A stretch of 64,000 bases of DNA. It comes from Alphaproteobacteria bacterium. Lineage in GTDB: Bacteria > Pseudomonadota > Alphaproteobacteria > UBA828. This document shows, one piece after another, positions 48,359 through 60,756 of this stretch; position 1 is the stretch's first letter; every line of letters begins with the position of its first letter. The notes below the pieces were generated by a model. It made no database searches, had not been told where the DNA came from, and saw only the letters and a list, made by a program, of their open reading frames with translations. Made by a program: the position numbers and the translations under genes. Location of the stretch: contig OZ243972.1 of assembly GCA_965214705.1 (NCBI GenBank), positions 2,848,001 through 2,912,000 on the forward strand, written 5' to 3'.

Positions 48359-48703
48359 CTTATGAGCTCTCTCCGCAAGGCCCGGCTTCATCTACGTCAA
48401 TGGCATTCGCAATCTCTCCACTCGAATCCGCGGCCGATGTCCAGGCAGAACGTCGTTTCCACGCAGCGATCCGCCACGCTGCTCAGCTCTTATCCGGTTC
48501 GGAACTCCGGCGCTTGCCGGCTCCGTGACCCCAATACCGCATCCAAGCGGTGGTGACGTTCCGGGAGGCGGGACCCATCTGTAGAACGGTGCCAAGCGGC
48601 GACCCAACTCTTGCCCGGTCACACGCCTTGCCCGGCATCCTCCGCGGCCGCGTCCGACCACGTCGGAACCTCCTGTATTTTCCCGTTCGTTCGGCCGGTG
48701 CCC
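48359..48703 (-). ncRNA. Putative bridge/seek RNA region of the IS1111-type element
   Basis: Non-coding 3' region with segments matching the target (48580-48589, 48605-48615) and circle junction (48487-48493, 48534-48538), each pair separated by a hairpin; exact RNA ends unknown. Confidence 0.7.
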
Positions 48704-49900
48704 TCAGGAGACGATGGCGCCCTCAGGCACCAGTCCTTGGGTGGCATAGCGCCACAGCGCGATCAGCAGCTTGCGCGCGACCCCCACGATCGCCCGCTTC
48801 CTCGCTCGCCGGTCCCTCCCGCCACCGGCATCCCTGGCGACGTAGGCGTGGAACCACTTCGTGATCGCGCTTTCCGGTTGCAGCTTCAGCCAGCGCCAAG
48901 CCATCTGGATCATGTGCTTCCTGACATGCGAGGGGCCGGCCTTGCTGATGCCAAGATCGTGGTCGACATCTCCGCTCGCCCACGGCACCGACGTCAACCC
49001 GGCCCAGCTGCCCAACTCCCGGCGATTGCGGAAGTCCCGATAGAACACCTCGCCAGCCAGCAGTGTGGCGTCATTGAGGCCGATGCCATGGATGCGCGTA
49101 AGCGCCGCGATCATCGCCGTCCCGTCACGATTGGTCGCGTCCTGGGCTTTCCGGCCAGCCTTCAGCAGGGCCCTCTTCTCGGCCTCGATCATCTCGATAT
49201 GCTCCTCAACCAGGCGAAGCATCCCCACCGCCCTCTCAATCTCTGCCCGCGCACGCGGCGGCAACGGCGCCCCATAGCCCGTCCGCGCGGTCGCGAGGCG
49301 TTCGAGGAAGTCCGGCTTGCGCGGCGCCAGATCGAAGATGCCGTGCAACTGCAAGAGCCCTTTGATCCGGTTGTTGACGCGGGTACGCTCGCTGATCAGC
49401 GTGTCCCTCTCGCGCAGCAGGCGCTTGGCATCCTCCTGGTCCACATCGGGCACGCGCACCCAGGACATGGCCTCCGAATCGCCTTGGTCCCATGCCTTCA
49501 GAGCCCGAACCATCCTCCTCGCGTCGATACGGTCGGTCTTTTTCTTCTTGGCGCGCCGGTTCACCCGCAGGCTCGCCGGATCGTTCATGAAGATATCGAT
49601 CTCCGCGTCACGGCGCTCGATATCGCGGGCAAGCCAGAACCCCTCGTAGCCCGCCTCGTAGGTCAGCATCACCCGAGGACGGGCGCCGAGCTCCCTCGCC
49701 ACCCGTTCCCGCACCGACCCGACGAGATCCAACAGTCCCGCCGTGTCGGCAGCAGCCAGTGTGTGGATGCTGATGCTGCCACCCGAGGCATCCGGGCAAT
49801 GCACGCCAACGATCCACGATTTGAGGCTGATCTCCACCGCGACATAAATCGTGCTACTACTTGCGCCTGTCAGCGCGGTCGTGTCTGGACCATCCGACAT
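48704..49900 (-). CDS. IS110-family transposase/recombinase
   Basis: 'YEAGYEGFW', 'KTDRIDA', 'GIG', 'AGLT..P.ASG', 'GISKAG', 'VARKLL'. Confidence 0.93.
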   Translation of the reverse strand: MSDGPDTTALTGASSSTIYVAVEISLKSWIVGVHCPDASGGSISIHTLAAADTAGLLDLVGSVRERVARELGARPRVMLTYEAGYEGFWLARDIERRDAEIDIFMNDPASLRVNRRAKKKKTDRIDARRMVRALKAWDQGDSEAMSWVRVPDVDQEDAKRLLRERDTLISERTRVNNRIKGLLQLHGIFDLAPRKPDFLERLATARTGYGAPLPPRARAEIERAVGMLRLVEEHIEMIEAEKRALLKAGRKAQDATNRDGTAMIAALTRIHGIGLNDATLLAGEVFYRDFRNRRELGSWAGLTSVPWASGDVDHDLGISKAGPSHVRKHMIQMAWRWLKLQPESAITKWFHAYVARDAGGGRDRRARKRAIVGVARKLLIALWRYATQGLVPEGAIVS

Positions 49901-50203
49901 CCGTCCACTCCGTTGTTGACGATTCCGCTCGGAGAGAAGGTGCTGGCCTTCTCTCCGAGCTTGTCTAACCGCCAGAATCGATTCGGTGCCACCGTGCTCA
50001 TGGTATCTGAAGAGCGGATGCTCGCGCCCGCAGCCCTCGCAGGCGTACATGTGGCCGCCGAGCACGGCGGTGCGGCACGCCTCGATGGCGCCCATGACCT
50101 TGAGCCGGGCGGCGTCGATGCGCCCTTTGTGGCGCTCACGGAAAGCGGCGCCGGCGCGGCGGAAGATCTCCGCCACGCCCGCGCGTTCGGCCTCCACGCG
50201 CCG

Positions 50204-53561: not shown

Positions 53562-56018
53562 TCAATCAACAGATACGGAAGAGCCCTCAGGGTCTCCAGT
53601 ATTGTAGCGCTTCCAAACCGGCACGAACGATTCGAGCTTGTATCCCTTCGGCGTCGCACCCGACTCGAGCCGGATCGTGCACGGCGTGATCTTGAAGCGC
53701 TTGAGCAGCTTCGCCAGACCACGCGGAGATAGTGGCCGATTGCGTGAATATTCCGACCAAGGGTGCCCCTCCATTGCGATTAGTGCCGGGAGGATGGCGG
53801 GATTAAATTTGTCGTAGGCGGCGTCAGATTTGCCGGTTGGCAGATGCGGCGGATCCGCTGCTTCGTAAAACACCTGCCGCATATCGGCCAGCAGTATTTC
53901 TGCTATGTCCGTCTCATCGATGGTAGCAGCCGTGATGGCCATGCAGGCTCTCCACGCGCGACCGTTTGTCTCGGCCCACTCTCCGCCTGCGCATTCGGCG
54001 ATCGAATGCAACGGTGCCCAAGCGTCGCGGGCCCGGTCGTGGAGGCCGGGCGGGAAGACCACATCACGCCGTGGTTTAGCCAGCGACGCGCCATTGTCAT
54101 TCGTCCATCGGGCCATTTTCCGCCGGATGGCTTGCGTCTCTTCCTTATTGCGGTCCCCCCAGAACGGCATATTCTTGGCGCCCGACGTGCGACGTTCCAG
54201 CTCAATCACGATTGAGCGATCAAGTATTGTACCGGGAACAGTGCCGATTCCGACGATGACCTTGGGGCAGTATGTGGCAAAGCAAGCTGGTTGCCAAATG
54301 TCTCCCAGTTTGACCATGCGCAATGCTTGAGCGCCCTTTAGGCGTTGAGAGCCATTGATTAGGCCACGCAAGTTTTCATCTTCTCTAAGGTACGTATCGG
54401 CCTCGTCGAGAAGAATTGTTGGCCGATGCTGCTCGATCGTACGGAATAGAGCTGCCGATGTTGTGTGCCCGCTTAAGTTCAGCGGGCGAATTGCGAATTC
54501 CTCAATCACCTCCACCAACAGGGACTTGCCGCACCGCTTTGTCGCGCTTGTGATGTTCAGGAAGGTCGATATTTCCCATTGATTATGTGACCACGAATAC
54601 ATGACCCATAGTGCCGCGGTATCGGCCTGCGCCTCCGACATGTCGACATGGAATTTGAACTGTGCGGCCAGTTCACCTAGCAATTCGTCACCGTTTACTT
54701 TGTCGTGCCAGAGCTCATCCTCCGGCCACTCCAATGTCTGCCCTCGCGAGGCTAGGAGTTCCAGATCTTGGCTCCTCTTTTTCAGTTCTCTGTCAAGCTC
54801 TCCGACAGGCACCTTAGCCTTGAACCGCAGACTGGCTCTAAGGCGCATCCACGAGGCCATGTTGGTGTGCTTAAGTTTCCTTATCTTCTCTACGATTTCC
54901 GGCTCGAACGGAGCGCCGGGGTCATTCTCCGCTCGCTTAAGGAGATCTTTAGTCCAGTCCGTGCTGTCTGCTATATCCGTCGTATCTGTGGCTTCGCCTG
55001 CGTCCGGTGAGTCCGGCGCGTTTGGGGCCGCGCGCTCATCCGGCGTGTCTGCGGTACCGCCGGCACCCGGCGTGTCCGCGGCTTCGCCCGAGCCCGGTGT
55101 AACTGCGACTTGGAGCTTCGGCGGCTCGTAGTCCTTCGCCAGGCCCTTGAGCCAGTTGGCGGCGCCTTCGGTGCCGCCCTTCTCGAACTCGTCGGCAATG
55201 TCGTCACCGCTTTCGCCGAGGGGGAGCGCGACGCGCACCTTGCACTCGTGCTTCACGAGAAGTTGAACGATTCCAGTCATCGCCTCGCGCCCGGTCTCGT
55301 CGGCGTCCGAGACGAGCAGGACCTTGCGGCCGTAGATCGGCGAGAAATCGGTGAGCCGCCATGATTGGGTGCCGTGTGACCAAGTGGTGACGCAGGCTTT
55401 CGGAAACGCCTCGAGCGTCGCGTGGACGCACTTCTCGCCCTCGACGACGATGACCTGCTGGCCCTTGGGGGCCTTTAGGAGCCGGGGCAGAAGGTAGAGC
55501 GGGCGATCCTTCTTCATGAGGTTCTTGATGATCCAGCCGCGTTTGTTCCCCTTCTTGCCGCGCGTGTAGGGCCAGAACCTCCTTTTGCCGTCGGGGCCCG
55601 GCGGGAGCTTCGCGATTTTGAACTTGAGCCGGCCTTCAGCGTCCACGTAATCCCAAATCGCGAGCGCGTTCCGGGGCAGCTCGGTAACGAACGGAGGTTG
55701 TTTAGGCTTGGCGTTGGCCTTGTGATCCGGGGAGCGGTCGAGGCCTTCACGGCTCGGTTGTGCCCCATTAGAAGGCGACCCTTTGTGCAAGCGAAGGGCC
55801 GCCTTCTTAGTGAGTTTACGGGCCTTCTCGAGGTAGGTGACGCAATCACCCCCCTCGCCACAGCCAAAGCACTTGTAGAGGCCTCCTTTCCCCTTCTCGA
55901 GATCGATGCTGAAGGATGGGGTCTTCTCTTGGTGGAAGGGACAGAGCGCCACCCACCGGCTGCCTTCCTTGCGCGGCTCGATGCCGTCCTCGCGGAGGTA
56001 GTCGAGCAACGTCTTCAC
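53562..56018 (-). CDS. Satellite/phage primase: CHC2 zinc finger + Toprim + DUF3631-like domain
   Basis: 'CPFHQEKTPSF..CFGCG', 'VVEGEK', 'DADETG', 'KRCGKS', 'LLDEAD', 'KGY'. Confidence 0.88.
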   Translation of the reverse strand: MKTLLDYLREDGIEPRKEGSRWVALCPFHQEKTPSFSIDLEKGKGGLYKCFGCGEGGDCVTYLEKARKLTKKAALRLHKGSPSNGAQPSREGLDRSPDHKANAKPKQPPFVTELPRNALAIWDYVDAEGRLKFKIAKLPPGPDGKRRFWPYTRGKKGNKRGWIIKNLMKKDRPLYLLPRLLKAPKGQQVIVVEGEKCVHATLEAFPKACVTTWSHGTQSWRLTDFSPIYGRKVLLVSDADETGREAMTGIVQLLVKHECKVRVALPLGESGDDIADEFEKGGTEGAANWLKGLAKDYEPPKLQVAVTPGSGEAADTPGAGGTADTPDERAAPNAPDSPDAGEATDTTDIADSTDWTKDLLKRAENDPGAPFEPEIVEKIRKLKHTNMASWMRLRASLRFKAKVPVGELDRELKKRSQDLELLASRGQTLEWPEDELWHDKVNGDELLGELAAQFKFHVDMSEAQADTAALWVMYSWSHNQWEISTFLNITSATKRCGKSLLVEVIEEFAIRPLNLSGHTTSAALFRTIEQHRPTILLDEADTYLREDENLRGLINGSQRLKGAQALRMVKLGDIWQPACFATYCPKVIVGIGTVPGTILDRSIVIELERRTSGAKNMPFWGDRNKEETQAIRRKMARWTNDNGASLAKPRRDVVFPPGLHDRARDAWAPLHSIAECAGGEWAETNGRAWRACMAITAATIDETDIAEILLADMRQVFYEAADPPHLPTGKSDAAYDKFNPAILPALIAMEGHPWSEYSRNRPLSPRGLAKLLKRFKITPCTIRLESGATPKGYKLESFVPVWKRYNTGDPEGSSVSVD

Positions 56019-56455
56019 GGGGGCAAGATCCCGCAGAGGCCCGCGATCTGCTCGAACCAGCCTTCAGGGTAGCCCTGCTCGTGGCGGATCCGCTCGATCT
56101 CCACACAGGGATCGTGGGACCGCCGCGCCTCGCGGATCCGGCGCTCGACGTCCGAGCTCCTAGGCTTCTTGCCGCCGCTCTCGCCGTGCTTGGTCTTCGG
56201 CAGGACCTCCTGCAGCTCGACGCCCACCTCGAGCACAGTCTTGGTCGCCGGCGGTGTCCCGCAGGTCGGGCATGCGGGCTTGCGGGCAGGGTAGACCGTG
56301 GCGCTGTTGCGAGCGCCGCGGGTGCGGGCTAAGTTATTTGCGGTCTCGTGTCGATTATGAGATCCGCCGCGCCCGTCCTGGACCCTGCATCCAGGCGGGC
56401 GCGTTCCTTTTCGAACCATAGGATCATGACTTGCCCGCGTGCTGGCGCTTCGCAT
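56015..56455 (-). CDS. Hypothetical satellite protein (CPTC motif)
   Basis: ORF between alpA and primase, overlapping both; start uncertain. Confidence 0.5.
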   Translation of the reverse strand: MRSASTRASHDPMVRKGTRPPGCRVQDGRGGSHNRHETANNLARTRGARNSATVYPARKPACPTCGTPPATKTVLEVGVELQEVLPKTKHGESGGKKPRSSDVERRIREARRSHDPCVEIERIRHEQGYPEGWFEQIAGLCGILPP

Positions 56456-56669
56456 CGGGGAGATCTGCCAGCCACTTCTGGATGTCGGAGAGGCGCCACG
56501 CGACTGCGCCGTTTGACCCAGGCCCGATACGCTTTGGAAGCGGAAAGCGCCCCTCTCGCATTGCGGCGTAGAGTCGCGAGGTGCTCATGCAGGTTATCTC
56601 CTCGACCTCGGGCCGGCGTAGCAGCCTGTCCGCCATCAGGTCGGTTGCTGGTGTGCCATTTGTGGCCAT
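56424..56669 (-). CDS. alpA: AlpA family phage regulator/excisionase
   Basis: 'LLRRPEVEEIT.MS.SRLY..M..GRFP.P..IG...VAW..SDI..W'. Confidence 0.9.
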   Translation of the reverse strand: MATNGTPATDLMADRLLRRPEVEEITCMSTSRLYAAMREGRFPLPKRIGPGSNGAVAWRLSDIQKWLADLPDAKRQHAGKS

Positions 56670-56984
56670 GGGCCCGCTCCTGTTCATCGAACTTGCCCAG
56701 GAATAGGTAATAATTGCTGCCCGCACGAGAGACAGAATTCGCGGAATTGTGTCCCTGTTAGGAGACCGCGTCTGCCTTCGCCTCCCTCTTCTTCGCCTTC
56801 TTCCTCACCCGGTCCCGTATTTTTGCCGTGAAAGTTTCTTCGGGACGGGCACGAGTAGGGGAATTACGACGAGGCGTCGCGTTGTCGGCGTGAGGCCGCG
56901 CTCGCGGCGCTTGGAGACGCGGTCGGACTTCGGGCTGCCCTGGATTGTGGCCCGGTGCCGACCGTGCTCCGACCAGGTAATGCT

Positions 56985-58247
56985 TCAGGCGGTCGCGGCC
57001 ATGGCAGTTGGGATACGACCGGGCTCGAGCAAGCCGTGCCGGCGGAGCATGCGGATCCAGCGCGGGGCATTTCGCCTGACCATGAGGGCTTCGTAGTCGG
57101 CTTCCGGATCGTAGTAAGGCTTGGCGTCGCGCAACACGACGTAGAGGACCCGCAGCATCTTGTGCGCGGTGGCGACGATGGCCCGCTTGTAACCGCGTCG
57201 GATCATGAGAGCCTTGTGGTAGCCGCGGAACTGGCAGCCATGGGTTCGCGCCGCGCCATGAGCGCATTCGACGAGCACGGCGCGCAGGGTCTTGCTGCCC
57301 ATGCGTGTGCGGGCGGCACGGCGCTTTCCGGCGCTTTGGCTGTTGCCGGGACAGAGACCGGCCCATGCGGCAAGCCGATCAGTGGAGCCGAAGGCGTCGA
57401 GGTCGGGGCCGATCTCGGCGAGGATGGCGCAGGCCGAGGCCCGGTCGATCCCGGGGATGGTCTGGAGAAGCAGGATGCGGTCCTCCCAGGGCACGAAGCC
57501 ATCGTCGATGGCCCGGTCGAACCCCTGGATGCGCTCCTCCAGCGCATCGTGCTCGCGAAGCAGATCGCACAGGATCAGGCGGTCCGCAGCGCTGAGGGAG
57601 AGGCTGAGGGCGTCGCCGAGCCGCTCGACCTTGTGCGCCACATGGTGGCTGAGCGAGGCCAGGATGGCGTCCGGTCCGAGCCCCTCAGCCAAGCCGTCGA
57701 GAACCCGTCTCCCGTTCGTGCCGAAGACGTCGGAGAGGACACCGCCGACGCGCACGCCGCTGCGGTCCAGGACCTTCTGCACCCGATTGCGCACCCGGCT
57801 GCGCTGACCGACGAGGGCGCGCCGGTAGCGGGTAAGTGCGCGCATCTCCCGGAACGCCTTGGGCGGCACGTGGCTGGGGCTTGCCAGACCGAACTGACAG
57901 ACCCGCGCCAGCCAGACGCTGTCCGCCACATCGGTCTTGCGGCCCTTCAGCTGCTTGACCTGCCGGGCGTTGACCAGCACCACGGAGATGCCGGCCGCCT
58001 CCAGCGCTTCGAACGGTGCCACCCAGTAGATGCCGGTGCCCTCCATCACTGCGGCATCGACTTTGCGCGCGAGCATCCATGCCACCATCTCGTCGATGCC
58101 GCTGGGCAGAGCCTCGAAGGTCCGCGTCGCGATCTGCGGCTCGCCGCCGCCGGGTGCACAGATGCGGATCGATGTGGTGATCTGCATCTTGTGCACGTCA
58201 ATGCCGGCGGCACGAGCATGGACGACGTGCAGTGTGTCGGTTCTCAT
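56985..58247 (-). CDS. IS110-family transposase/recombinase
   Basis: DEDD motifs 'GIDVHK', 'MEGTGIYW', 'KTDVADS'; 'IPGI', 'AGLCPG..QSAG', 'AHKML'. Confidence 0.95.
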   Translation of the reverse strand: MRTDTLHVVHARAAGIDVHKMQITTSIRICAPGGGEPQIATRTFEALPSGIDEMVAWMLARKVDAAVMEGTGIYWVAPFEALEAAGISVVLVNARQVKQLKGRKTDVADSVWLARVCQFGLASPSHVPPKAFREMRALTRYRRALVGQRSRVRNRVQKVLDRSGVRVGGVLSDVFGTNGRRVLDGLAEGLGPDAILASLSHHVAHKVERLGDALSLSLSAADRLILCDLLREHDALEERIQGFDRAIDDGFVPWEDRILLLQTIPGIDRASACAILAEIGPDLDAFGSTDRLAAWAGLCPGNSQSAGKRRAARTRMGSKTLRAVLVECAHGAARTHGCQFRGYHKALMIRRGYKRAIVATAHKMLRVLYVVLRDAKPYYDPEADYEALMVRRNAPRWIRMLRRHGLLEPGRIPTAMAATA

Positions 58248-58562
58248 GATCTCACCTCTCGCTTGGGGAAGGCGGAGGCGGACGGGCCGGTCGGACTGAA
58301 CACACACCCGCCTCGGGTGCGGTGCGGTTTGCCGCGCGTCCACGGCTCGGCGGCCGGGAACAATCCGGGGCTCGGAGCCGACCGGCCGGGGCCAGTTTTT
58401 GATCGGGAAGCAGTGCTCACCACTAAAACGACGGCCATTGTGCCGCCTCCACCGACCGTGACTCTAATGCCGCTATGCCACGCAGGGGCAGCGTTCATTC
58501 CCTCGACCGAGGCACCGGACTTTCATCATCCGGGGTGGATCGCTACACGCCGGCCATGTCTG
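58248..58562 (-). ncRNA. Putative bridge RNA region of the IS110 element
   Basis: Contains ATCAAAAA (equal to target flank) and CGGCAAAC (equal to circle junction) next to hairpins; exact RNA ends unknown. Confidence 0.68.
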
Positions 58563-59344
58563 TTTTTGATGGTCTCCGGGTCCGCATCGATGAGGCCTTC
58601 CTTTCGACACGCCGCTGCAACTATCTCCAGCGCATCCTTCAGTTTCGAGTTTGTCAGCTTGACCAAGATATCGATTGCCAAAGTAATCTTCTGGTCGCGC
58701 CTCCAATTCATCGGCTTCGGTCCCCGTCGGCGCTCTGGACGATCAGTGAACAGCGCGGTGCTCACCCAATTTCGCAGACTGGGCGGAATCGGCTCACCCA
58801 AACTGACAATCAAAGCCACGAGATGACGCAATAAACTGTCGGCTCGCGGGTCGGTCTTGGCCTGTTCCAGCCACTTTCGGCATTGCAGACATGCGTCGAA
58901 CCGGTAGTAGACATCGAGCATGCTGATAGCCTTGTAGCGCACAATGGCGTCTTGGTAGGTCAATCCGGCTAGCGTTCCGTCCCCGACATTCAAGATGTGC
59001 CTGGCCATCAACTCGCGCCGAGAGTCGATCTTCTCCGCTGCCTCTCTATCTCTCGACGCAGGCTCCAAGAATGGACTAAAGCGCTTCTCTTCAGTGGCCG
59101 CTACATTCCAGCCCCGATCAAACTCTGGATCATCATCCCCTCCGTCGTTAGGTTTTGGATTATCAACGACCAAGCTTTGGCACGCTTTGAAGTGGTCGAT
59201 CCGATCTTTCTCACTTAGGTATTGCTTCAGGTCCGCCAAGCTGTGTTCGATCAAGAAGGGGCCATCCTCATAGACGAGGGCGTGGAGGCGAGGAGGGACA
59301 GGGGGCGAGCACCCTTCCAGGCAGGGGCAACGTGGCCTATCCAA
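58563..59344 (-). pseudogene. Hypothetical island gene interrupted near its 3' end by IS110 (tail at 56758-56821); start uncertain
   Basis: Lower-GC ORF downstream of the integrase; frame continues across the IS junction. Confidence 0.6.
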
Positions 59345-60529
59345 GGTGGCGCACCATCGGCACGACGCGTCCTTCCTCGCCCTCCAGGTAGGCCGCCCAT
59401 TGCTCCATAAGAGCGCGGCGCTTCTCGAGCAGCGTAGACCGCGCGTAGGCCGCCTCGACGGCGTTGCCCACTGCGTGGGCCAAGCAAAGCTCCATGACCG
59501 CGTGTGGCGCGTTCGTACACTCGCCCGCCCAGTCCCGGAAGCTCGACTGGAAGCCGTGGACGGTGGTGCGATCGGCGAATTCGAGATCGCGCAGCAGCTT
59601 GGTCAGTGTCATGTCACTCATCGGCTTGCCCGGCCGCAGAGGCGACGGAAATACGAGGTCGCTACCGAAATGTTGGAAGGACTTGGCTTCCGCCAAAATC
59701 GCCATGGCCCGAGGCGAGAGGGGCACCCGGTGCTCGACCTTGGCCTTAATGCGTTCCGCTGGGACGGTCCAGGTGGCGGCGTCCATATTTATCTCTGACC
59801 AGAACGCCCCACGCGCCTCGCCGCTGCGCGCGGCCGTCAGGATCAGGAACTCGAGACACCACTTCGACGCCAGGGAGGCTCTCGATCACCGCACCGCCTC
59901 GATCACCTTATGCACCTCTTCGTAGGGCATCGCTCGAAAATGGTTTTTGACTCTCGGCATGGGCGGCAGAGCACCGTCGATGGTCTCGCCGGCGACGTTA
60001 TTCTCGACATACCCGTGAGCCATGGCCCACTTGAGGATCGTGCAGACGCGCTGCCGCACGCGCCGCGCGCTTTCCATGCGTACATGCCAATGGGTGTAAG
60101 GATTCGCAGCATGTCCTCTCGGCCGATCCGGTCAACGGGCATGTCGCCGATGACCGGAAAGGCGTGCCGCTCAAGCGACTGCCACCAGCCCACCGTGCGC
60201 TTGCCGTTCCGCCATCGCGGCTTGTTAGCCTCGAACGTTCGTTCCGCAGCCTCGCGAAACGTGGGTGTAGCGACCTTGCGCTTCTTGGCGAGCGGGTCGC
60301 CGCCGGCCGCGATCAACCTGCGGTTGTGGGCTACAGCCTCGCGAGCCTGGGCAAGTCCGACATCTGGGAACCGCCCCAGACCGATATCTCGCCGCTTGCC
60401 TGCGACCACCACGCGCTGGATCCACGACCGTGCGCCGGTGCGTGAGATCTTGAGGTAGAGTCCGGCTCCGTCGCCGTGCAAGCTGGGCGTCTTCAGGCTC
60501 CGTATCCTCGCTGCTGTCAGTTTCGGCAT
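59337..60529 (-). pseudogene. P4-like integrase, inactivated
   Basis: Arm-binding 'DGAGLYL..RSW..IGLG.FP'; frameshift near 60085, in-frame TGA at 59886, 'TAARSGE', HGFR changed to 'HGFQ', 'LAH..AY'. Confidence 0.9.
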
Positions 60530-60668
60530 TTCCCATCCCCACATTCGTGCCAACATCAATGTTGGGAATATATGTAAAGCGCTGAGAACACGCGGGAGAG
60601 ATTGTCTCTATAAGATACTGAAGTAGGGGAGTTTTTAGAACTTTCCGAAAGCACTTGGGGAAGGAGAT

Positions 60669-60756
60669 TGGCGGAGGGACGGGGATTCGAACCCCGGACA
60701 CCTCTCGGTGAACACGCTTTCCAGGCGTGCGCCTTAAACCACTCGGCCATCCCTCC
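60669..60756 (-). tRNA. tRNA-Ser(GGA)
   Basis: GGAGGGATGGCCGAGTGG...CT-GGA-AA...long variable arm...GGTTCGAATCC...CCGCCA. Confidence 0.97.

What the first reader, a model, noticed from the sequence alone, without database searches (positions are those of the whole stretch)
56822..58562. Second IS110 element with a 5' bridge RNA matching its own target and junction
Seen: the minus-strand upstream region has CCGTCGTTTT (8/10 to the reverse complement of the right flank), a hairpin (AGTG..CACT), then ATCAAAAA (58403-58396), identical to the left flank 58570-58563. Further on are TGTT, a hairpin, and CGGCAAAC (58334-58327), identical to the predicted circle junction cacggcaaa|cagac. The boundaries implied by the guide also restore the host ORF (ETIKKIRDRVRKK...). 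Both bridge-RNA layouts (5' and 3' of the transposase) therefore occur within 10 kb. In both, the reverse-complement guide comes before the same-strand guide.
Basis: partly seen in the sequence, partly recalled or inferred. Interest (0 to 1): 0.72.

Follow-up and report, generated by a model that had tools for sequence, protein, structure and literature searches.

The report
IS110 element with upstream bridge RNA
This is a real, recently active IS110-family jumping gene whose upstream non-coding end encodes a guide ("bridge") RNA matching its own insertion site and its own right end, of a known kind but with the two target guides in the opposite order to the textbook IS621 example.

Summary
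Window 56822-58562 (minus strand) is a 1741-bp IS110-family element, present in three identical copies. An uninterrupted paralogue of the host gene shows that removing exactly these 1741 bp restores ...ETIKKIRDRVRKK...*.

Its 5' non-coding end holds a conserved ~183-nt structured RNA (58453-58271), shared by 13 related elements. In an unbiased scan three RNA segments track each element's own DNA:
- ATCAAAAA (58403-58396) matches the left flank.
- CGGCAAAC (58334-58327) matches the right end plus junction.

So this is a bridge (seek) RNA.

TGTT lies in an almost invariant stem and does not track the left end. The AGTG/CACT hairpin is not conserved. No guide for the left-end tip was found.

The target loop runs complement-first, then same-sense. 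That is the order published for IS1111-type downstream RNAs, and the opposite of IS621 and ISEc21, although this RNA lies upstream. The donor part sits in a multiloop, and a covarying inverted repeat lies ~35 bp inside the left end.

I rate it a new variant of a known kind, of moderate interest.

The parts
56822..58562 (-). IS110-family insertion sequence, 1741 bp including one copy of the shared AAA
   Evidence: 3 identical copies with different flanks. An empty-site paralogue fixes the length.
58563..58570 (-). Left target flank, ATCAAAAA
   Evidence: Shared as ACCATCAAAAA by the two independent target types.
58248..58562 (-). Left non-coding end, 315 nt
58519..58526 (-). Internal inverted repeat ATGAAAGT, the reverse complement of the right-end ACTTTCAC with one mismatch
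   Evidence: Covaries in 13 elements: own common run 7.15 against null 4.91, 0 of 5000 shuffles as high.
58271..58453 (-). Conserved structured RNA (bridge/seek RNA core), closed by stem P1 (58453-58443 with 58281-58271)
   Evidence: 13-sequence alignment A1. RNAalifold predicts 37 pairs, 13 with compensatory changes.
58432..58436 (-). Stem P5, 5' strand GGCCG. Pairs with 58394-58390 (UGGCC) and closes the target loop.
   Evidence: 65 of 65 cells paired. The centre pair is AU:9, CG:2, GC:1, UA:1, and a G.U pair is invariant.
58423..58431 (-). Target-loop 5' strand UCGUUUUAG: right-target guide, complementary to the top strand of the A-run plus CG(A/G)
   Evidence: The scan peak for right-flank complementarity falls here (z 3.7, 0 of 300).
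58404..58422 (-). Hairpin P6 inside the target loop
58396..58403 (-). Target-loop 3' strand AUCAAAAA: left-target guide, same sense as the left flank
   Evidence: Scan peak z 7.9, 0 of 300. Permutation 0 of 5000.
58378..58387 (-). Stem P2, 5' strand GGCCGGUCGG. Pairs with 58294-58285 (CCGACCGGCC) and encloses the donor module.
   Evidence: Compensatory variants GGCCAACGG/CCGTTGGCC, GAGCAACGG/CCGTTGCTC and CGGCCGGCG/CGCCGGCCG.
58363..58377 (-). Junction J2/3, CUCCGAGCCCCGGAU. Its tail repeats, in the same sense, the left-end-internal CCACCCCGGAT at 58538-58528.
   Evidence: Tails match own against others: 1.36 against 0.50, 0 of 5000. Function unknown.
58337..58362 (-). Hairpin P3.
   Evidence: Pairs almost invariant. 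One relative has a 20-nt insertion in the loop.
58327..58334 (-). CGGCAAAC: left-donor guide, same sense as the right end CGGC + AAA + the first C of the left end
   Evidence: Covaries with right ends (CGGC, CAGC, CAAC, TGGC). Scan z 5.2, 0 of 300.
58301..58324 (-). Hairpin P4
   Evidence: Compensatory changes in 6 of its 10 pairs.
56985..58247 (-). Recombinase gene, 420 aa
   Evidence: PF01548 + PF02371. NF033542. Aligns to the IS621 recombinase across its GID, E, DxxD and S motifs.
56828..56835 (-). Right subterminal repeat ACTTTCAC, followed by GGC + AAA
56810..56821 (-). Right target flank, AATACGGGACCG

Best explanation
A 1741-bp IS110-family insertion sequence, recently active, with three identical copies at two kinds of site. 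Its 5' non-coding end is transcribed with the recombinase gene. It folds into a ~183-nt bridge (seek) RNA.

One internal loop, closed by stem P5, reads the target.
- Its 5' strand UCGUUUUAG pairs with the top strand to the right of the crossover (A-run + CGACG-like).
- The two overlap on the A-run core.

A second module, a multiloop closed by stem P2, carries CGGCAAAC. [quoted passage not shown]

The DEDD/Ser recombinase then exchanges strands inside the A-run, as shown for IS621.

Shown here: the element and its ends, the conserved structure, and the covariation of three guides with their DNA.

Inferred: transcription and processing, a circular intermediate, the exact crossover register, and how the left-end tip is recognised (no guide was found for it).

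The preferred natural target appears to be the A-run of an IS630-like transposase gene. The window copy sits in a look-alike site.
For: Element.
- Copies and flanks.
- Two of the copies lie at the same position in IS630-like copies whose flanks are only 95-97% alike, while the inserts are 100% identical.
- Empty sites.
- One relative's IS630 site reads AAAACGACGC, 9 of 10 to the guide's complement.

Protein.
- Family matches.
- IS621 recombinase hit at E 2.7e-16, with the GID, E, DxxD and S motifs aligned. These positions are invariant in 9 relatives.

RNA structure.
- Conserved across Tnp relatives of 56-80% identity from several phyla.
- Structure with compensatory changes.
- The many G.U pairs fit only the recombinase strand.

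Guides.
- Permutation tests.
- Unbiased window scan over the whole RNA. Left-flank same-sense signal peaks at alignment columns 49-57. Right-flank complement peaks at columns 21-25. Right-end same-sense peaks at columns 135-141. Each was reached by 0 of 300 shuffles.
- The A-run length of the left guide equals that of the left junction in 11 of 12 elements; this is my reading, not a computed test.
- In genome G037, 18 of 19 non-tandem insertions of a B-like element carry ACAAAA on the left. Its guide is GACAAAA.
Against: - No guide for the left-end tip was found by the column scan, the 9-mer search or the window scan.
- The right-target guide is the weakest of the three. It is not significant if G:U is counted (727 of 5000).
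- That guide fails for the B-like element. Its 19 right flanks show only A at +1 (16 of 19) and no match to its 5' strand. It is also poor for L012, L021 and L022.
- There is no direct evidence of the RNA or of a circle. The RNA run gave only contigs of related elements. The one 'skip' joint in a DNA run is the paralogue, not an excision.
- The number of A's the element brings is 3 by the host-gene paralogues. By 6 of 7 IS630 empty sites it would be 2.
- No Rfam family matches.
Confidence: 0.85

Rival explanations
1. Both loops run complement-first, with TGTT (58362-58359) pairing with core + left-end tip (AACA) and CGGCAAAC following after hairpin P3.
For: With an asymmetric A-run core, target and donor loops should share one polarity. 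TGTT does precede CGGCAAAC with a hairpin between them. AACA fits the three elements whose left end starts CAG. The U could wobble-pair with G in the CG-starting ends.
Against: TGT is paired in the almost invariant stem P3. The fourth base is T, A or G, whereas the core A is constant. The left-end tip shows no covariation anywhere in the RNA; the best z is 2.6, in a gap region.
Confidence: 0.1
2. Only the left-target and right-end guides are read by RNA. The U-rich 5' strand merely pairs with the A-rich 3' strand inside the free RNA, and the right flank is not specified.
For: In the B-like element with at least 37 copies the right flank is nearly free. Several relatives carry plain U7-8 there. 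The G:U-tolerant test is not significant.
Against: Matches run beyond the A-run into non-A bases:
- AACACG in L014
- AATAAAC in L017
- GAAAGCG in L019
- AAAATAA in L009-L011
- AAAACG in the window element

The non-A extension is 1.78 against 0.69, reached by 4 of 5000 shuffles. The scan for right-flank complement peaks exactly on this strand.
Confidence: 0.12
3. The conserved upstream structure is an ordinary 5' leader that regulates the transposase. Site choice is made by the protein, and the matches are chance.
For: No direct RNA or binding data here.
Against: Three separate segments covary with three separate DNA partners, each reached by 0 of 300 to 0 of 5000 shuffles. The protein belongs to NCBIfam's 'IS110 family RNA-guided transposase'.
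Confidence: 0.03

Closest known systems
IS621 bridge RNA and recombinase (Durrant et al. 2024, PMC11208160; Hiraizumi et al. 2024, PMC11208158). I read passages and one section.
   Same: - A DEDD + Ser recombinase, with the catalytic motifs aligned.
- The RNA is encoded in the left end, upstream of the gene.
- An internal loop has two guides that read opposite strands and overlap on the core.
- A same-sense guide covers the right end plus core.
- There are no terminal inverted repeats.
   Different: [quoted passage not shown] Here the target loop is the other way round.
- Here the donor guide sits in a multiloop with two hairpins, not in a simple internal loop.
- No right-donor guide was found.
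- The recombinase is 420 aa against 328 in the solved chain, and similarity is low (E 2.7e-16).
- The core is an A-run rather than CT.
ISEc21 seekRNA, IS110 type (Siddiquee et al. 2024, PMC11187229). I read passages.
   Same: An upstream non-coding region yields an RNA with one match to each target strand.
   Different: In ISEc21 the bottom-strand match precedes the top-strand match. Here the top-strand complement comes first.
IS1111-family seekRNAs / bridge RNAs (ISEc11, ISKpn4, ISPa11; same two papers)
   Same: - The top-strand complement lies 5' of the bottom-strand match.
- Donor-binding bases sit in a multiloop.
- Subterminal inverted repeats are present, with 3 bp (GGC/AGC) between the right repeat and the core.
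   Different: - Their RNA lies downstream of the gene.
- Their repeats are 11-13 bp and lie 7 bp (left) and 3 bp (right) from the ends. Here the repeat is 7-10 bp and its left copy lies ~35 bp inside.
- Their transposases are 330-350 aa.
- The window's own 3'-RNA element has a recombinase only 25% identical over 101 aa to this one.

Membership tests
IS110 family (broad sense) RNA-guided transposon | Recombinase with a RuvC-like DEDD domain plus a Tnp domain with catalytic Ser | tested here: met
   PF01548 at 1.7e-24 and PF02371 at 1.2e-19. NF033542 at 268 bits against a cut-off of 140. D17, E69, D106, D109 and S305 are invariant in 9 relatives and align with the IS621 motifs. Residue roles are as in PMC11208158.
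IS110 family (broad sense) RNA-guided transposon | Site-specific insertion without terminal inverted repeats. The apparent duplication is only the shared core. | tested here: met
   Flanks share ACCATCAAAAA on the left. The same position is used in two diverged IS630-like copies. Empty sites.
IS110 family (broad sense) RNA-guided transposon | Structured RNA in a non-coding end whose loops covary with target and donor | tested here: met
   Structure. Left-target, right-target and left-donor guides.
IS110 family (broad sense) RNA-guided transposon | Right-donor guide pairing with core + left-end tip | tested here: not met
   No signal. Only 12-14 elements were available, so power is low.
IS110 family (broad sense) RNA-guided transposon | Circular intermediate with abutted ends; RNA bound to the recombinase | not testable with these tools
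   Only contigs were available. The single joint seen is the paralogue.
IS110 group in the narrow sense (IS621/ISEc21 layout) | Long non-coding region upstream of the gene | tested here: met
   Left end 315 nt against right end 163 nt.
IS110 group in the narrow sense (IS621/ISEc21 layout) | Bottom-strand (same-sense) guide 5' of the top-strand guide in the target loop | tested here: not met
   The complement of the right flank peaks at alignment columns 21-25. The same-sense left flank peaks at columns 49-57.
IS1111 group | Subterminal inverted repeats of 11-13 bp, 7 bp from the left end and 3 bp from the right | tested here: not met
   The repeat here is 7-10 bp. Its right copy is 3 bp + core from the end, but its left copy is ~34-37 bp inside.
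IS1111 group | Long non-coding region and RNA downstream of the gene | tested here: not met
   The RNA lies upstream.
IS1111 group | Top-strand complement precedes bottom-strand match | tested here: met
IS1111 group | Transposase clusters with IS1111 in a tree | not tested
   No labelled reference sequences were to hand. At 420 aa the length lies outside the 330-350 aa range quoted.

The most novel reading that the evidence does not exclude
This clade (recombinases at least 56% identical, found in Gamma- and Alphaproteobacteria, Acidobacteriota and Longimicrobiales MAGs) would be a hybrid bridge-RNA architecture. The RNA is encoded upstream, as in IS110. Its strand polarity and multiloop donor module are of the IS1111 type. 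The left end would not be read at its tip at all. Instead, the donor would be defined by three things: the right-end guide; a same-sense segment (J2/3, ACCCCG+NNN) that tracks a site ~25-33 bp inside the left end; and the covarying inverted repeat that brackets the ~40-bp junction region. Guide order would then be uncoupled from RNA position, and donor recognition would differ in geometry from IS621.
Probability: 0.3. Interest if true: 0.6.

Novelty: new variant of a known kind. Interest (0 to 1): 0.45.

Why it matters
Bridge/seek RNA-guided recombinases are being developed as programmable DNA insertion tools. Their rules come almost entirely from IS621-like elements and a few IS1111 elements.

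This family adds three things.
- An upstream RNA with the opposite guide order.
- A long right-target guide in several members: 7 to 8 contiguous bases including the core.
- A donor module with no evident guide for the left-end tip.

That shows guide polarity is not fixed by where the RNA is encoded. It also gives a compact natural test case of how donor ends are recognised.

Biologically, it shows one mobile element homing to the A-run of another (an IS630-like transposase gene). A sister element has expanded to at least 37 copies, with tandem arrays, in a genome of the same genus.

Late-2026 work already reports 86 bridge-RNA covariance models with structures unlike IS621. This architecture may therefore already sit in such a catalogue. 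I could not see its figures or supplements.

Tried and rejected
- Rfam found nothing. At gathering thresholds the window gave only a tRNA. At E up to 10 on 58200-58600 there were only two far-below-threshold hits.
- Single-sequence folding of the 315-nt leader was uninformative (z -1.2).
- The metagenome scan kept 80 loci of 588 relatives. Only L026, plus a weak L034 at E 0.035, share the RNA by nhmmer. The other 78 (34-41% identity) were not used.
- Of the 18 genome loci I left out L020 (upstream region does not align) and L023-L025 (partial genes). L010 and L011 served as extra copies of L009. L013 was used for its right end only. L008 lacks a right end.
- Searches for a left-end-tip guide all gave nothing consistent. 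I tried the single-column scan, the 9-mer search with up to 2 mismatches and the window scan. By eye I also checked J2/3, the P6 loop and J4/2.
- The handshake-guide idea also gave nothing consistent. The bases after the U-run do not regularly match the right-end tip (read).
- Sequencing runs gave no evidence for or against expression or excision.
  - They held contigs only.
  - The RNA run (share 0.12) holds pieces of related elements at 90-95% identity.
  - These include one 394-nt contig, at depth ~300, over the guide region of a B-like element. Pieces over the gene lie at ~20. Contig depths cannot rank parts of a gene, so this is no more than a hint.
  - The 1742-bp 'skip' in run X5 carries the paralogue's base differences and is the paralogue.
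- Group placement by tree was not done. Plasmid hits were at most 39.5% identical and mostly unlabelled.
- Supplementary files of the papers were not open. They may hold guide maps for ISAzs32, ISHne5 and others, and the 86 models, which bear on novelty.
Full report
WHAT IS THERE

On the minus strand of window 56822-58562 lies a 1741-bp element. It has a 315-nt left non-coding end, a 420-aa gene (58247-56985) and a 163-nt right end.

The protein matches Pfam DEDD_Tnp_IS110 and Transposase_20. It also matches NCBIfam NF033542, 'IS110 family RNA-guided transposase', at 268 bits against a cut-off of 140. Its nearest solved relatives are the IS621 (E 2.7e-16) and ISCro4 recombinases. The GID, E, DxxD and S motifs align with IS621. 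These are the residues that PMC11208158 reports as catalytic, and they are invariant in nine relatives.

ENDS AND TARGET

The window's genome (7.9 Mb, 3 contigs) gave 7 matches to the element:
- three copies identical over exactly 1-1741
- one right-hand fragment
- two copies of a 72%-identical sister, 'B'
- one 41-nt chance hit

In element orientation the flanks of the full copies are:
- accATCAAAAA|CAGAC...CACGGCAAA|aatacggg (the window copy)
- accATCAAAAA|...|acggcgcac
- accTTCAAAAA|...|acggcgcac

The last two lie at the same position in two IS630-like transposase genes. Their flanks are only 95-97% alike, while the inserts are identical. These are therefore separate hits on one site.

The host gene of the window copy has uninterrupted 92%-identical paralogues in the same genome and in genome G041. 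They read ACCATCAAGAAAATACGGGACC, which gives ETIKKIRDRVRKKAKKREAKADAVS*. It also fixes the element's share of the A-run at three.

Uninterrupted IS630-like sites in the genus carry seven A's in 6 of 7 loci and six in the closest one, L137. Six A's agree with three from the element; seven would imply two. The register inside the A-run therefore stays slightly open.

A CONSERVED RNA

A peptide-pattern scan of species genomes gave 18 loci with recombinases 49-82% identical over the best matched segment (56-80% for those I used). They come from MAGs of several phyla. One metagenome contig, L026, added a further member.

The upstream regions of these loci align from about 110 nt inside the left end to just before the ribosome-binding site. 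RNAalifold on 13 sequences predicts 37 pairs, 13 of them with compensatory changes. These include a closing stem P1, hairpins P6, P3 and P4, and many G.U pairs. The G.U pairs fit only the recombinase strand.

Two further stems that MAFFT had misaligned were checked sequence by sequence.
- P5 (GGNCG/UGNCC): 65 of 65 cells pair. The centre pair is AU:9, CG:2, GC:1, UA:1, and a G.U pair is invariant. Five cells change on both sides, reached by 0 of 500 shuffles, and sliding the partner drops pairing to 62% or less.
- P2 (10 bp in the window copy): compensatory versions include GGCCAACGG/CCGTTGGCC and GAGCAACGG/CCGTTGCTC.

The layout from 5' to 3' is:
- P1 opens.
- Target module: P5, a 5' strand of 9-13 nt, hairpin P6, CCCG, a 3' strand of 9-10 nt, then P5 closes.
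- Donor module: P2, junction J2/3, hairpin P3, the CGGCAAAC strand, hairpin P4, a short J4/2, then P2 closes.
- P1 closes.

WHICH STRANDS READ DNA

For 14 elements I took left and right flanks and both ends. Where possible these came from copies with different flanks.

Permuting which element owns which guide gave:
- left flank against the 3' strand of the target loop: 6.33 of 8 matches against 4.48, 0 of 5000 as high
- right end against the CGGCAAAC strand: longest run 7.15 against 5.39, 0 of 5000
- right flank against the complement of the 5' strand: run 4.89 against 4.07 (3 of 5000); extension into non-A bases 1.78 against 0.69 (4 of 5000); not significant if G:U counts as a match (727 of 5000)

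I then ran an unbiased scan of 10-nt windows along the whole RNA, on the 13 aligned elements.
- The same-sense left-flank signal falls at alignment columns 49-57 (z 7.9).
- The right-flank complement falls at columns 21-25 (z 3.7).
- The same-sense right-end signal falls at columns 135-141 (z 5.2).
- Each was reached by 0 of 300 shuffles.
- Nothing stands out for the left-end tip in either sense; the best z is 2.6, in a gap region.

Examples of guide against DNA:
- left guides ATCAAAAA, GACAAAA, CCCTAAA, CCTAAAA and TGTGAAA against flanks of the same sequence
- right-end guides CGGCAAA, CAGCAAA, CAACAAA and TGGCAAA against ends ...CGGC, ...CAGC, ...CAAC and ...TGGC
- right guides whose complements are GTAACACG, AAAATAAAC and GGAAAGCG against flanks AACACG, AATAAAC and AAAGCG

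For the window element the complement AAAACGACGG meets AAAAATACGG here (8 of 10) and AAAACGGCGC in the IS630 site (8 of 10, plus one G:U). It meets AAAACGACGC in a relative's IS630 copy (9 of 10).

WHAT FAILS

The P3 pairs hardly vary.
- Its fourth base is T, A or G, although the core A is constant.
- It does not follow the left-end tips, which vary between CAGAC, CAGTC, CGGTC, CCCTC, CAGCC, CGCCC, CGGCC, CGTTC and CTCCC.
- The AGTG/CACT hairpin is absent from the closest relative, L008. The conserved P6 uses overlapping bases.
- Three bases of CCGTCGTTTT belong to P5.
- The right-target guide is not universal. A B-like element has at least 37 copies in genome G037. Of the 24 loci I read, 19 have non-tandem left flanks, and 18 of those carry ACAAAA; 8 carry GACAAAA. 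The 19 usable right flanks show only A at +1 (16 of 19) and do not match its 5' strand.

COMPARISON WITH WHAT IS KNOWN

[quoted passage not shown] ISEc21, the one tested upstream seekRNA, has the same order. The IS1111-type downstream seekRNAs have the top-strand complement first (PMC11187229).

Here the RNA is upstream but the target loop runs top-strand complement first. Durrant et al. also note that donor-binding bases of many IS1111 elements sit in a multiloop, as they do here.

The element also has a covarying inverted repeat. The right-end bases just before GGC/AGC + A-run are repeated, inverted, about 34-37 bp inside the left end. The own common run is 7.15 against 4.91, reached by 0 of 5000 shuffles. 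This is unlike the 7-bp/3-bp spacing that defines IS1111.

Just before that left repeat lies CACCCCG+NNN. The same motif with a matching tail recurs in RNA junction J2/3: 1.36 against 0.50 identical bases, 0 of 5000. Few lineages are independent here, so I report this as unexplained.

The window's other IS110-family element lies at about 48359-50007 on the minus strand. It has a 345-nt 3' non-coding region and sits inside an IS91-type gene. Its recombinase is only 25% identical over 101 aa to this one.

NOVELTY

Searches covered 'bridge RNA', 'seekRNA', IS110/IS1111 and the guide names. None of the passages I read from the papers they returned describes an upstream RNA with this order. A 2026 preprint, of which I read one section, reports 86 bridge-RNA models, many unlike IS621, without describing guide order. 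The family may be in that set. Figures and supplements were not visible to me.

VERDICT

This is a genuine, recently active IS110-family element with a bridge RNA in its left end. The donor-loop reading is not. It is a new variant of a known kind, of moderate interest.

Noticed in passing
window ~48359-50007 (-): This is the other IS110-family element, with a ~395-aa recombinase and a 345-nt 3' non-coding region, inserted in an IS91-type transposase gene. The genome holds at least 11 places matching the whole 2001-nt query at 100%. In 16 places the two flanks abut, which are empty IS91 sites reading CGCTCTTCA|ACTCCTGCC.
   Followed up: partly
G037 loci L107-L135 (e.g. G037:C11:48474-56756): A genome of the same genus carries at least 37 copies of a B-like element, 94% identical to B. 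Some form head-to-tail arrays of up to five copies with a period of ~1769 bp, joined by CACGGC-AAA(A)-CAGTC. The right end plus A-run resembles the element's own target (GGCAAAA against GACAAAA).
   Followed up: partly
window 58519-58526 and 56828-56835; same positions in 13 relatives: A covarying subterminal inverted repeat is placed asymmetrically: ~35 bp inside the left end, and 3 bp + core from the right end.
   Followed up: partly
window 58528-58538 versus 58363-58377: The left-end-internal CCACCCCGGAT is repeated in the same sense in RNA junction J2/3 (GAGCCCCGGAT). The variable tail tracks between the two sites across elements. Its function is unknown.
   Followed up: partly
L002/L003 (G000:C1:3989690, 3960000), L004 (C3); empty sites L137-L144: The element's main target is the A6-7 run of an IS630-like transposase gene (...ITF/IKKT...). 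With seven A's the gene is in frame. With six, as in L137, it would need a frameshift.
   Followed up: partly
window 56424-60756 and G000:C1:676091-676870: The interrupted host gene (no Pfam match) lies in an integrative island. Neighbours are AlpA (56424-56726), a primase/DUF3631 gene (53562-56018), an integrase fragment (59903-60559) and a tRNA (60672-60756, minus strand). A 92%-identical paralogue elsewhere in the genome carries AAG where the window copy has AAA. That G would mismatch the left guide.
   Followed up: no
run X1 on window 58314-58398: A metatranscriptome assembly holds a 394-nt contig, at depth ~300, over the guide region of a B-like element. Pieces over the recombinase gene lie at ~20. 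Contig depths cannot rank parts of a gene, so this is only a weak hint of a stable RNA.
   Followed up: no
L017 left flank: One relative sits next to ...TATACAGCAA|G, which resembles the family's own right end (ACACAGCAA). It may be a remnant of an earlier copy or a self-like target.
   Followed up: no
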